A stretch of 64,000 bases of DNA from assembly GCF_041248615.1 (NCBI RefSeq), contig NZ_CP158426.1, one strand, 5' to 3'. The first letter of the stretch is position 1, and every line of letters begins with the position of its first letter. This document shows, piece after piece, positions 55,801 to 56,740 of this stretch. This DNA is from Escherichia coli (lineage in GTDB: Bacteria > Pseudomonadota > Gammaproteobacteria > Enterobacterales > Enterobacteriaceae). The translations under genes and the position numbers were made by a program. Below the pieces are notes generated by a model. That model did not search any database, was not told the DNA's origin, and saw only the letters and a program-made list of their open reading frames with translations.

Positions 55801-55984
55801 TTAATTCATCACAACGGCCTTCTGCATATTAAAATCAATACTATCGCTCAAAACACGCCAGATGATTCTTGTCAGCTTATTCGCCAGCGCACCAGTGGTT
55901 TTCAGGAACCCTCGACGGGCTTCCATCCTTTGCAGACAAATACTCAGACTGTCAGTGAGCTTTTTCACACAGCGCATTACAGAC
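55801..55984 (-). pseudogene. C-terminal fragment of an IS110-family-like transposase, truncated by IS3-family insertion
   Basis: Reverse-strand frame ...GALANKLTRIIWRVLSDSIDFN resembles the conserved C-terminal helix of IS110/IS1111 transposases; upstream part replaced by IS3-type end at ~55985. Confidence 0.4.
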
Positions 55985-56740
55985 TGAAATGGCACACTGA
56001 ATTTGGTCACCTGAACAGAGGTGATATGCTCACCTCAGAACAAGACTGGTGCCCTAATGAAAAAAAGAAATTTTAGCGCAGAGTTTAAACGCGAATCCGC
56101 TCAACTGGTTGTTGACCAGAACTACACAGTTGCAGATGCCGCCAAAGCTATGAATGTCGGTTCCTATACACTGGGGGGCATGGGTACGTCAGCTCAGGCG
56201 GGAACGTCAGGATACCACGTCTTCTGCATCACCACTCACATCAGAGTAGCAACGTATTCATGAACTGGAAAAGCAGGTTCGTCGCCTGGAGGAACAAAAA
56301 ACGATATTAAAAAGCTACAGTGCTCTTGATATCCTTCCCACTGAACGGTTTACGATAGTTACCAGACTGAGCGGCGACACACGATTGTCAGTCTTTGCGC
56401 TGCTCTGGATGCTCATTGCAGCAGTTCCGGCACTGGCAGAATCGGCTCAATACGATTGATCCGGCGCGAATCAAATTGTATAGCGAAACAGTCCGGGTCT
56501 GGAACCAGAGTCGGGGTTCCGCAGGTGCGCGTGCTCTGGCAGATATGCTGATTCAAAATGGTATCCCGATGAGCAGTTGTCGTGCCAGGCGGCTGATGAA
56601 GCATCTGAACCTGAGAAGTGCTCAGCCCGGAAAATATCAGTACAAAAATGCCCGCCAGGAGCATACCAGCCTGCCGAGTCTGCTTGAGTGTCGGTTTTCT
56701 GTGCTGGAGGCCGAGCAGGTATGGATTCTTAAATAAACCT
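55985..56740 (+). mobile_element. IS3-family element remnant (IS911-like left end and orfA; orfB truncated)
   Basis: Left end TGAAATGGCACACTGAATTTGGTCACCTGAACAGAGGTGATATGC; orfA begins [32 protein letters not shown] then frameshifts; orfB-like N-terminal fragment at 56395..56736 only. Confidence 0.7.

What the first reader, a model, noticed from the sequence alone, without database searches (positions are those of the whole stretch)
55801..56740. Nested IS remnants: IS110-like fragment truncated by a degenerate IS3-family (IS911-like) element
An IS3-type left end and a frameshifted orfA start at about 55985, with orfB truncated near 56740. Immediately upstream on the opposite strand is a C-terminal fragment resembling IS110-family transposases, cut off at the IS3 end. 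Successive insertions and deletions suggest a long-lived recombination hotspot.
Basis: partly seen in the sequence, partly recalled or inferred. Interest (0 to 1): 0.3.

Follow-up and report, generated by a model that had tools for sequence, protein, structure and literature searches.

The report
Dead IS110/IS3 insertion-sequence relics
One fragment still carries the guide-RNA gene of an IS110-type element that inserts into the ends of other insertion sequences.

Summary

**IS110-family relic, minus strand, 55563-55984.** It matches an intact element on a Klebsiella aerogenes plasmid at 92.8% DNA identity. It keeps transposase residues 284-344 of 344, the complete 238-nt 3' non-coding region and the right subterminal repeat. 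That layout places it in the IS1111 group. The closest ISfinder transposase among those checked is ISXpo1 (69% amino-acid identity). The non-coding region has the features of a seekRNA/bridge-RNA gene. In 22 related copies its guide loop co-varies with the flanking target (0 of 20,000 permutations reach the observed score).

**IS3-family element, plus strand, 55985-56888.** It is not 3'-truncated. Both terminal repeats are present and an internal deletion removes the whole DDE core. It is a hybrid: IS911-like (92.7%) up to about 56150, then ISEc31-like. orfA carries a frameshift and a stop codon, and the frameshifting site is destroyed.

**Junction.** The intact IS3 left tip abuts codon 284 of the IS110-family transposase gene, with no target duplication.

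**Origin.** The mosaic did not build up at this chromosomal site. It arrived inside a 7,271-bp IS1414-bounded unit flanked by an 8-bp duplication. The same cargo block lies in a different context, near ICE-type genes, iha and other IS relics, in the one other genome examined.

Low interest overall. The IS-end-targeting IS1111 clade is a modest side finding.

The parts
55550..55562 (-). 13-nt remnant of an IS3-family terminal inverted repeat. It reads TGCTCAACAAAAG on the minus strand and directly follows the IS1111-type right end.
   Evidence: In intact copies the same right end is followed by TGGTCAAC(A/T)AAAACTGGCCAC, which is an IS911-type repeat lacking its first 5 nt.
55563..55800 (-). 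Complete 3' non-coding region of an ISXpo1-like IS1111/IS110-family element. It holds the right terminus (…CCATATA, last base 55563) and the right subterminal repeat GGGACGTCCAT (55566-55576). It also holds a seekRNA/bridge-RNA module: guide A GUUGACC (55707-55713), guide B GUGUAGUGAU (55680-55689), a left-end-matching AACAUCA (55654-55660) and a right-end-matching AUAUAUGGUCGC (55608-55619).
   Evidence: 92.8% DNA identity to L007 3003-3431. The region is conserved across 8 and then 30 copies. The consensus fold has compensatory changes in stem P2. Guide and flank co-vary.
55801..55984 (-). Last 61 codons plus the stop codon (TAA, 55801-55803) of the IS110-family (IS1111-group) transposase gene. 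These are residues 284-344 of 344. The DEDD catalytic domain and the serine motif are absent.
   Evidence: BLASTP gives 52/61 identical to the K. aerogenes transposase. tblastn E 2e-26. NCBIfam transpos_IS110 positions 302-340 of 343. DNA homology ends at 55984.
55985..56888 (+). 904-bp non-autonomous hybrid IS3-family element with both terminal repeats. IRL is 55985-56011 and IRR is 56863-56888 (TGCAGTGCTCAATTAATATTAGCCAC on the minus strand).
   Evidence: blastn to intact IS3-family copies: L009 1501-2257 and 2638-2763; L007 4672-3926 and 3546-3425.
55985..56160 (+). IS911-like 5' segment: IRL plus orfA codons 1 to about 32. The recombination joint lies in the shared stretch AAGCTATGAATGTCGG (56145-56160).
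   Evidence: 92.7% identity to IS911 (L008) over 55984-56160, with no similarity beyond. The six-sequence alignment shows the switch of lineage.
56057..56355 (+). Degenerate orfA. It has an extra G in the run at about 56174-56179 (frameshift), a CAG>TAG stop at 56247-56249, and a slippery A6G frameshift site reduced to AAAAAGC (56304-56318).
   Evidence: Alignment to L003, L009, L007, ISEc31 and IS911. tblastn pieces fall in frames 2, 3 and 1. Pfam HTH_Tnp_1.
56377..56724 (+). N-terminal part of orfB (HTH_21 region), equivalent to residues 25-141 of an intact OrfB. It ends right before the first catalytic D.
   Evidence: tblastn 61% identity, E 1e-44. Pfam HTH_21 at 35.6 bits. NCBIfam transpos_IS3 positions 108-220 of 369.
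56725..56765 (+). Deletion joint or filler (~40 nt with no homology). It replaces ~380 bp that encode the DDE core.
   Evidence: There is a gap between the two blastn segments. The D, D and E motifs (WCGD, FHSD, SPME; residues 144, 204 and 240) lie in the missing part.
56766..56863 (+). C-terminal remnant of orfB (…YYNSVRPH…LTPEESENRY…), itself frameshifted near 56813.
   Evidence: tblastn to OrfB residues 255-301 falls in two frames.
57177..57560 (+). Context: 3' fragment of an ISL3-family (ISEc38-like) element with an internal deletion.
   Evidence: NCBIfam transpos_ISL3 positions 275-368 of 370. ~91% identity to ISL3/ISEc38 copies, in two pieces that span ~710 bp in the references. PGAP annotates a pseudogene.
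57648..57707 (+). Context: solo IS1414-like right end (…GACCGCTTGGACGGTCAC…GGTAAACAGGCTC). It forms the right boundary of the imported 7,271-bp unit.
   Evidence: It parallels IS1414's own right end at 51680-51747, compared by eye.
50437..51747 (+). Context: intact IS1414 (IS256 family), forming the left boundary of the imported unit. The 8-bp direct repeat ATCAAATC sits at 50429-50436 and 57708-57715.
   Evidence: PGAP annotation. Comparison with the uninterrupted K-12 rrfF-yhdZ spacer.

Best explanation
The region is non-functional debris made of two interlocked insertion-sequence relics. They were imported together with neighbouring DNA.

Shown:
1. 55563-55984 (minus strand) is the 3' 422 bp of an unnamed ISXpo1-like IS1111-group (IS110-family) element. 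It holds the last 61 codons, the full 3' non-coding region and the right end.
2. In relatives, this non-coding region carries two loop segments that match the DNA on either side of the insertion point, as in published seekRNA/bridge RNAs. In many cases that DNA is the terminal repeat of another IS, cut 5 nt from its tip.
3. In the window the right end still abuts 13 nt of an IS3-type repeat.
4. 55985-56888 is an IS3-family element with both ends. It is IS911-like for the first ~170 bp and ISEc31-like thereafter. It has lost reading frame, frameshifting signal and the entire DDE core.
5. The whole block lies in a 7,271-bp IS1414-bounded unit with an 8-bp target duplication, inserted in the rrfF-yhdZ spacer.

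Inferred order of events:
1. An IS1111-type element inserted, guided by its RNA, into the terminal repeat of an earlier IS3-family copy.
2. That copy was later deleted down to 13 nt.
3. A second IS3-family element joined through its left tip to codon 284 of the IS1111 transposase gene. This happened by insertion followed by adjacent deletion or inter-IS recombination, since there is no 3-bp duplication. The 5' ~940 bp of the IS1111 element were lost.
4. The IS3 element recombined with an IS911-like copy at an 8-16-nt shared stretch and then decayed.
5. IS1414 transposase, using its own left end and a distal solo right end, moved the whole block to the present site.

Nothing here can transpose on its own. 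The guide-RNA gene is orphaned: it has no transposase, and the only promoter known for this family forms at the circle junction.
For: Identity of the pieces: IS110 part; IS3 part.

Extent and ends: the intact reference element spans L007 ~2071-3431, defined by Rahnella and Yersinia copies.

IS1111-group features: a 7-nt left extension plus the subterminal repeat ATGGACGCCCC, and GGGGCGTCCAT plus ATA on the right, with the non-coding region downstream of the transposase gene. These match the published family description (PMC11187229).

Guide RNA:
- A conserved fold has compensatory pairs in stem P2. Columns 100/113 are GC in 9 sequences and AU in 8.
- Guide A is the reverse complement of the right flank. 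Examples: GUUCUUAUAC/GTATAAGAAC, GUAAAACC/GGTTTTAC, GUAAACC/GGTTTAC.
- Guide B equals the left flank plus the first bases of the IS. Examples: AGUAAUGAU/AGTAA|TGAT, UGUAGUGAU/TGTAG|TGAT.
- Permutation test: 138 of 198 matches versus 109.7 ± 5.6, with 0 of 20,000 permutations reaching the observed value.
- Neighbours of the right end in other genomes are IS3, IS982, IS1 and ISNCY transposase genes.

Hybrid IS3: block identities and the alignment with L003, which is 99.3% identical downstream of the joint but ISEc31-like upstream.

Lesions.

En bloc import: window 51748-57708 is 99.98% identical to a block in NZ_CP033635.1 that sits in a different context.

No second IS110- or IS3-family transposase gene occurs in the 64-kb window. 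No copy of this IS110-family element covers 80% or more of its length in 5,426 complete E. coli genomes by megablast.
Against: - The order of events is inferred from junction anatomy only. No intermediate forms were found.
- The 13-nt repeat remnant is short. Its guide-matched bases differ from the guide complement at one position (GCTCAAC versus GGTCAAC). The left flank of the IS1111 element, which would prove a canonical insertion, is gone.
- The 'hybrid' IS3 could in principle be a natural, still unsampled IS species rather than a recombinant. Only the L003 comparison argues against this.
- No experiment or RNA-seq shows that the non-coding region was ever transcribed in this element. Rfam has no matching family.
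- Guide A and the flank are offset by one base in four loci.
- One copy (L045) has a guide that does not match its flank well.
Confidence: 0.85

Rival explanations
1. One reading: the fragments accumulated in place by successive insertions and deletions, because this chromosomal site is a long-lived recombination hotspot.
For: Relics of at least four IS families (IS3, IS110/IS1111, ISL3, IS256) lie within 2.2 kb. None has a target duplication of its own. So repeated rearrangement did occur somewhere.
Against: The same mosaic, 99.98% identical over 5,961 bp, sits in a different genomic context in NZ_CP033635.1. 53 genomes hold at least 80% of the 2.4-kb query. At the present site the block is bracketed by IS1414 ends and an 8-bp duplication of a sequence that is single-copy in K-12. 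That indicates one transposition event delivering a pre-formed mosaic.
Confidence: 0.1
2. The IS110-family element inserted into this very IS3 element via its specificity for IS3 ends, so the IS3 is the older, interrupted partner.
For: Relatives of this IS110-family element do insert into IS3-family terminal repeats.
Against: Canonical insertions place the IS1111 left or right terminus 5 nt inside the repeat. Here the IS3 left tip (TGAAATGG…) is complete and is joined to an internal transposase codon (residue 284), not to an IS1111 terminus. The canonical junction in the window is on the other side (55562/55563) and involves a different, almost entirely lost repeat.
Confidence: 0.03
3. The orphan non-coding region is retained because it still works. 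On this reading it is a trans-acting guide RNA for an incoming IS1111-type transposase, or a regulator of IS3-family elements.
For: The non-coding region is better conserved than the coding part, and all four guide-like segments are intact in the window. Orphan copies of the same ~160-175-bp tail occur in more than 1,000 plasmids. The published work shows that seekRNA can act in trans (PMC11187229).
Against: No promoter is known other than the one formed at the circle junction (PMC11187229). No cognate transposase gene is in the window, and no near-identical one is in complete E. coli genomes. The window copy carries drift in the subterminal repeat and stem positions. The abundance of orphan tails is explained by clonal spread of the plasmids that carry them.
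Confidence: 0.04
4. ORF 55801-56010 (69 aa, GTG start) is a genuine small gene rather than a relic.
For: It is an open frame of 69 codons.
Against: Residues 9-69 are simply the C-terminus of a 344-aa transposase. Its first 8 codons lie inside the IS3 left repeat. PGAP does not call it in the two identical records whose annotation was read.
Confidence: 0.02

Closest known systems
IS1111 group of the IS110 family. ISXpo1 is the closest ISfinder transposase among those checked; ISEc11, ISKpn4, ISPa11 and IS4321/IS5075 are the characterised members.
   Same: - Transposase C-terminus homologous to the family. The intact relative is 69% identical to the ISXpo1 transposase.
- Subterminal inverted repeats with a 7-nt left and a 3-nt right extension.
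- Long non-coding region downstream of the transposase gene.
- Two guide segments matching the two sides of the target (PMC11187229).
- Targeting the terminal repeat of another mobile element parallels IS4321/IS5075, which target Tn21-family repeats (my own knowledge: Partridge & Hall 2003).
   Different: - Only the last 18% of the transposase survives here.
- The target (TGNAG|TGGTCAAC, an IS911/ISEc31-type repeat tip) differs from the ISEc11 target GTGAAAATACTGT.
- I found no description of this target for any named IS in the searched literature.
- Guide B (bottom-strand match) lies 3' of guide A (top-strand match), consistent with the published IS1111 order.
IS911 (IS3 family, IS3 group)
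   Same: The left inverted repeat and the first ~32 codons of orfA are 92.7% identical. The orfA product begins [21 protein letters not shown].
   Different: Beyond ~56160 there is no BLAST-detectable DNA homology apart from two short ~55-65-bp pieces. The right end and body are of another lineage, so the element is not an IS911 copy or isoform.
ISEc31-like IS3-family elements (PGAP label 'IS3-like element ISEc31 family'; the intact copies used are L009, L007 and L002)
   Same: The body from 56161 and the right end align at 73-87% per 100-bp block. Organisation is the same: orfA, A6G site, orfB HTH_21, then YYN..RPH at the C-terminus.
   Different: About 24% DNA divergence from the intact copies. 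The left end is replaced by IS911-like sequence. The DDE core is deleted and the frameshift site is destroyed. The nearest relative is another relic on plasmid pMTY12368_IncF (99.3%).
ISEc21 (IS110 family), which targets a conserved codon block inside IS3-family transposase genes
   Same: It is an RNA-guided IS110-family element that uses another IS family as its landing site (PMC11187229).
   Different: ISEc21 has its non-coding region upstream and hits the DDE-coding region. The clade here has it downstream and hits the terminal repeat, 5 nt from the tip.
Pseudo-compound, one-and-a-half-IS transposition units of IS256-family elements (here IS1414)
   Same: One complete IS plus a distal solo right end bracket cargo DNA, with an 8-bp target duplication typical of the IS256 family (the duplication length is my own knowledge of the family).
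   Different: This was not tested experimentally. The solo right end differs from IS1414's own right end at several positions (compared by eye).

Membership tests
IS3 family | Terminal inverted repeats ending 5'-TG…CA-3' | tested here: met
   IRL is TGAAATGGCACACTGAATTTGGTCACC (55985-56011). The right end is …GTGGCTAATATTAATTGAGCACTGCA (56863-56888). Both align to the ends of intact IS3-family copies.
IS3 family | orfA with a helix-turn-helix, followed by orfB | tested here: met
   Pfam HTH_Tnp_1 scores 23.5 bits, just under the 24.1 cut-off, because the ORF is frameshifted. HTH_21 scores 35.6 bits against a 28.1 cut-off. tblastn to an intact OrfA and OrfB.
IS3 family | Programmed -1 frameshift site (A AAA AAG) joining orfA and orfB | tested here: not met
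   The site reads ATATTAAAAA--GCT, which is 2 nt shorter than in intact copies.
IS3 family | DDE (rve) catalytic core in OrfB | tested here: not met
   OrfB residues ~142-261, which include D144, D204 and E240, are deleted. No rve hit.
IS3 family | 3-4-bp target site duplication | tested here: not met
   The flanks are GAC on the left and GTG on the right.
IS911 (as a copy or isoform) | High identity along the whole element | tested here: not met
   92.7% identity over 55984-56160 only. Apparent identity is ~50% in global alignment beyond that.
IS110 family, IS1111 group | DEDD (RuvC-like) transposase with the C-terminal PF02371-type domain | tested here: inconclusive
   Only residues 284-344 are present. 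They are 85% identical to an intact family member and hit NCBIfam transpos_IS110 at 302-340 of 343 (20 bits, far below the full-length cut-off). The catalytic N-terminal domain is absent.
IS110 family, IS1111 group | Subterminal inverted repeats with short terminal extensions (7 nt left, 3 nt right) | tested here: met
   On the right, GGGACGTCCAT plus ATA is present at 55563-55576. The left end is missing in the window but is present in intact relatives as TGATGTG plus ATGGACGCCCC.
IS110 family, IS1111 group | Long non-coding region downstream of the transposase gene encoding a seekRNA/bridge RNA with target-matching segments | tested here: met
   A 238-nt region lies at 55563-55800. It has a conserved fold with compensatory pairs and guide/flank covariation across 22 guide-flank combinations. 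Transcription was not tested.
IS110 family, IS1111 group | Site-specific insertion without target duplication | tested here: inconclusive
   This is met in intact relatives, where the uninterrupted target TG(A/T)AG|TGGTCAAC can be reconstructed from the two flanks. In the window only the right flank survives (13 nt).

The most novel reading that the evidence does not exclude
The IS110-family relic is a footprint of an apparently undescribed ISXpo1-like clade of IS1111-group elements. Their seekRNA guides are tuned, copy by copy, to the termini of other insertion sequences (IS3, IS1, IS982, ISNCY), with insertion 5 nt inside the repeat. On this reading the IS110/IS3 association here and in many plasmids reflects IS-on-IS parasitism that disables the host IS end, not chance nesting.
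Probability: 0.55. Interest if true: 0.5.

Novelty: new member of a known kind. Interest (0 to 1): 0.28.

Why it matters
For this locus it matters little. It is inert debris, and the practical value is correct annotation. The annotation should show two relics with exact ends, a hybrid IS3 element, an unannotated IS110-family fragment and guide-RNA remnant, and an IS1414-mobilised 7.3-kb unit that explains why phoX and the relics sit between rrnD and yhdZ in this strain.

The wider point comes from the relatives. The same IS1111-type element family provides a ready-made natural series of guide/target pairs. I counted 13 distinct guides in the 35 loci recovered by the genome scan (34 of them are real; L015 is a chance match). 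These guides are directed at the ends of other IS elements. That is useful comparative material for the rules of seekRNA/bridge-RNA targeting, and for asking whether IS elements police one another.

Tried and rejected
- Pfam did not recognise the 69-aa ORF as Transposase_20. Homology was established instead by tblastn, NCBIfam and pairwise BLASTP.
- Rfam 15 has no family matching the non-coding region. The only hits in 55300-57800 were sub-threshold RNAI and PK-repBA matches at 57575-57750, caused by an IS1414-end hairpin and the yhdZ terminator. I rejected them as chance.
- I tried to fetch ISEc11 with its flanks from CP053751.1. The record is not in the collections. Its target was taken from the paper's plasmid table instead and differs from the one here.
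- Searching the seekRNA paper's supplements for the subterminal repeat or target sequence found nothing. Literature searches for an IS1111-type element targeting IS3/IS911 repeats, and for ISXpo1, found no description.
- Global MAFFT alignment of the deleted IS3 element against intact copies pushed the gap to the 3' end. Local BLAST segments were used for the deletion boundaries.
- My first estimates of the IS1111 right terminus (55556) and of the imported block's end (57708) came from BLAST over-extension into similar flanks. Direct reading corrected them to 55563 and 57707.
- An early idea that 'UGAAG' in the guide loop matches the left flank was dropped. The covariation data place the left-flank match in a different segment, guide B.
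- One script call returned no answer and was repeated.
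Full report
**Source and context.** The window is E. coli chromosome. Positions 55380-57770 are 100% identical to isolate NRZ14408 (NZ_LT599825.1). 53 of 5,426 complete genomes hold at least 80% of this 2.4-kb stretch. PGAP annotates a PhoX-family gene (window 53399-55378, minus strand). It then annotates two 'transposase' pseudogenes (window 56021-56724 and 57176-57505, plus strand), followed by yhdZ (57770-58528, minus strand). It annotates nothing at 55379-56020.

**Check of the observation.**
- The sequence TGAAATGGCACACTGAATTTGGTCACC begins at 55985 and is an IS911-type left inverted repeat. Positions 55984-56160 are 92.7% identical to IS911.
- orfA starts at 56057 ([21 protein letters not shown]…) and is split over three frames. 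Pfam finds HTH_Tnp_1 and HTH_21. NCBIfam finds transpos_IS3 positions 108-220 of 369.
- On the other strand, ORF 55801-56010 is the C-terminus of an IS110-family transposase. Its residues 9-69 are 85% identical to residues 284-344 of an intact 344-aa protein on Klebsiella aerogenes plasmid pYD-K10_1 (tblastn E 2e-26; BLASTP E 7e-34). NCBIfam places it at positions 302-340 of 343 of transpos_IS110.
- DNA homology to that element stops at 55984, one base before the IS3 tip.

**The IS110-family piece is bigger than reported.** The intact reference element spans L007 ~2071-3431, as defined by full-length copies on Rahnella and Yersinia plasmids. Its transposase gene is at L007 2152-3186. BLAST aligns window 55556-55984 to L007 3003-3431 at 92.8%. 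Direct reading puts the true terminus at 55563, so the relic spans 55563-55984. The window therefore keeps the last 184 nt of the gene plus the entire 3' non-coding region and the element's right terminus (…GGGACGTCCATATA).

Intact copies begin with TGATGTG plus ATGGACGCCCC and end with GGGGCGTCCAT plus ATA. That is subterminal inverted repeats with a 7-nt left and a 3-nt right extension, and the long non-coding region lies downstream of the gene. These are the published hallmarks of the IS1111 group (PMC11187229).

The closest ISfinder transposase in that paper's curated set, among those I checked, is ISXpo1, at 69% identity to the intact relative. So the element appears to be unnamed. No copy covering 80% or more of it was found in 5,426 complete E. 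coli genomes by megablast, only fragments.

**The non-coding region looks like a seekRNA/bridge-RNA gene.**
- A scan of species-representative genomes with a conserved 20-mer from the region returned 35 loci. One of them (L015, an alphaproteobacterial MAG) is a chance match with no surrounding homology; the other 34 are real. The genera are Xenorhabdus, Photorhabdus, Yersinia, Serratia, Rahnella, Buttiauxella, Brenneria, Trabulsiella and Pseudomonas.
- The consensus fold of 22 sequences has two stem-enclosed loops, with compensatory changes in the second stem. Columns 100/113 are GC in 9 sequences and AU in 8.
- In the first loop, a 7-10-nt segment (guide A) is the reverse complement of the DNA just right of the insertion point, and it changes with it. 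Examples are GUUCUUAUAC/GTATAAGAAC, GUAAAACC/GGTTTTAC, ACUUAACC/GGTTAAGT, GUGAUCC/GGATCAC and GUAAACC/GGTTTAC. The window type is GUUGACC/GGTCAAC.
- A second segment (guide B) equals the last five bases of the left flank plus the first four of the IS. Examples are UGUAGUGAU/TGTAG|TGAT, AGUAAUGAU/AGTAA|TGAT and CAUGUGAU/TATG|TGAT.
- Shuffling flanks among 22 distinct guide-flank combinations never reached the observed complementarity: 138 of 198 matches versus 109.7 ± 5.6, 0 of 20,000 permutations.
- Segments flanking the second stem match the element's own left end (ACAUCA versus TGATGT) and right end (AUAUAUGG.CG versus CG.CCATATAT).

This is the architecture described for seekRNAs and bridge RNAs (PMC11187229). 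In the window all four segments are intact: 55707-55713, 55680-55689, 55654-55660 and 55608-55619. Transcription was not tested, and Rfam has no such family.

**What these elements target.** In the intact Klebsiella, Rahnella and Yersinia copies, the two flanks reconstruct TG(A/T)AG|TGGTCAAC(A/T)AAAACTGGCCAC. That is an IS911/ISEc31-type terminal repeat cut 5 nt from its tip. An IS3-family transposase gene follows on the opposite strand.

In other genomes the gene next to the right end is IS3-family in L020, L033, L035 and L046 by family scan, and in L027 by motif only. It is IS982-family in L016, IS1-family in L017 and ISNCY in L024, each with a correspondingly different guide. Some flanks hold no IS gene, so 'IS ends' describes many but not all targets.

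In the window the right terminus is followed by TGCTCAACAAAAG (55562-55550) and then unrelated DNA. That is a 13-nt repeat remnant with one mismatch to the guide.

**The IS3 element is an internally deleted hybrid, not a 3'-truncated IS911.**
- Homology to intact IS3-family copies covers 55980-56724 and resumes at 56765-56888. It ends in …GTGGCTAATATTAATTGAGCACTGCA, a proper right repeat.
- About 380 bp are missing. They correspond to OrfB residues ~142-261 of an intact relative and include WCGD, FHSD and SPME, which is the whole DDE triad. About 40 nt of filler sit at the joint.
- Block identities show a switch of lineage. Up to about 56160 the element is IS911-like (92.7% by BLAST over 55984-56160; 86-88% per 100-bp block) and only 63-76% like ISEc31-type copies. 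After that it is 73-87% ISEc31-like, with no BLAST-detectable homology to IS911 apart from two short pieces.
- A relic on plasmid pMTY12368_IncF is 99.3% identical from 56145 onward but ISEc31-like upstream of that point. This places a crossover in the shared AAGCTATG(AATGTCGG) at 56145-56160.
- Further lesions are an extra G in the run at ~56174-56179 (specific to the window lineage), a CAG>TAG stop at 56247-56249, loss of 2 nt from the A6G slippery site (both shared with the plasmid relic), and a frameshift near 56813.
- The flanks are GAC and GTG, so there is no target duplication.

**How the two pieces relate.** The IS3 left tip is complete and joins an internal transposase codon. The reverse is not the case. 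The canonical RNA-guided junction is on the other side of the IS110-family relic and involves a different, nearly vanished IS3-type repeat.

The most economical history is as follows:
1. The IS1111-type element inserted into an IS3-family repeat.
2. That IS3 copy was lost.
3. A second IS3 element joined inside the transposase gene, with loss of the element's 5' ~940 bp.
4. That IS3 element recombined with an IS911-like copy.
5. The result decayed.

The steps are inferred and no intermediates were found.

**Not a hotspot at this site.**
- Window 51748-57708 is 99.98% identical to a block in NZ_CP033635.1. There it lies near ICE-type genes, iha and other IS relics.
- Compared with K-12, the window carries a 7,271-bp insertion (50437-57707) in the rrfF-yhdZ spacer.
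- The insertion starts with an intact IS1414 (50437-51747).
- It ends with a second, solo IS1414-like right end (57648-57707). This parallels IS1414's own right end, and both terminate in AACAGGCTC.
- It is flanked by ATCAAATC on both sides. That sequence is single-copy in K-12.
- The solo right end is also present at the end of the block in the other genome, which has no IS1414 on the left.

The simplest reading is one IS1414-mediated transposition of the IS plus its adjacent cargo. The rearrangements that created the mosaic therefore happened elsewhere and earlier.

**Other relics in the cargo.** Positions 57177-57560 are the 3' part of an ISEc38-like ISL3 element with an internal deletion. 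Positions 56889-57176 have no assignable origin.

**Function and verdict.** Nothing in 55550-56888 can encode a transposase, and the 64-kb window has no other IS110- or IS3-family transposase gene. The guide-RNA gene is orphaned. The finding is real, correctly typed at family level, and ordinary.

The added value is threefold: the corrected anatomy, the en bloc origin, and the recognition that the IS110-family relic belongs to a clade that hunts the ends of other IS elements. I did not find that clade described in the searched literature. It is nevertheless a straightforward extension of known IS1111/IS110 biology, in which IS4321/IS5075 target Tn21-family repeats and ISEc21 targets IS3-family transposase genes.

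Noticed in passing
window 50429-57715: There is a 7,271-bp insertion relative to the K-12 rrfF-yhdZ spacer. It consists of intact IS1414 (50437-51747), 5.9 kb of cargo and a solo IS1414-like right end (57648-57707). The cargo holds ABC-transporter pseudogenes, phoX and the IS relics. The insertion is flanked by the 8-bp direct repeat ATCAAATC. It looks like a pseudo-compound IS256-family transposition unit.
   Followed up: yes
loci L007, L011-L013, L016-L049 (genome and plasmid copies): ISXpo1-like IS1111-group elements have guide loops that co-vary with their flanks. Their right ends abut IS3-, IS982-, IS1- and ISNCY-family elements. This suggests a clade specialised on the termini of other insertion sequences.
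   Followed up: partly
window 55561-55741; loci L005, L006, L014: Orphan ~160-175-bp pieces of the same IS1111-type non-coding tail occur unannotated in more than 1,000 plasmids. In the two F-type plasmids read they lie near the replication region or an IS relic; in the Enterobacter and Klebsiella-derived plasmids read they lie next to the clpK/hsp20 heat-resistance locus. A separate ~196-bp 5' fragment of the element appeared in the chromosomal hits listed. Why the tail is so widespread was not examined; clonal plasmid spread is the default explanation.
   Followed up: no
L014 2646-2735: In an Enterobacter plasmid the IS1111-type right end lacks its last 5 nt (…GGGGCGTCC). It is joined to a complete IS3-family left repeat (TGAAGTGGTTTACTGAATTTGGCCACC). 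This is not the canonical insertion junction and is unexplained.
   Followed up: no
window 57177-57560: This is the 3' fragment of an ISL3-family (ISEc38-like, ~91% identity) element with an internal deletion of about 340 bp. PGAP calls 57176-57505 a transposase pseudogene.
   Followed up: partly
window 56889-57176: These 288 bp lie between the IS3 right end and the ISL3 fragment and have no assignable origin. They are shared at 99% with plasmid pMTY12368_IncF, where the sequence continues toward a LysR-family gene.
   Followed up: no
window 57575-57750: There are sub-threshold Rfam hits to RNAI (29.7 bits against a gathering score of 47) and PK-repBA. They are caused by the IS1414-end hairpin GTGACCGCTTGGACGGTCAC and the yhdZ-side terminator AAAGGCCATCCGAAAGGATGGCCTTTTT. 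I consider them chance.
   Followed up: yes
L004 2945-3330 (E. coli ET826 chromosome): A second E. coli relic of the same IS1111-type 3' end is 88% identical to window 55563-55891. It has a retargeted guide (GUAAACC) that matches its own flank (GGTTTAC, an IS3 left-repeat type). It is truncated at a different point and joined to a LysR-family pseudogene.
   Followed up: partly
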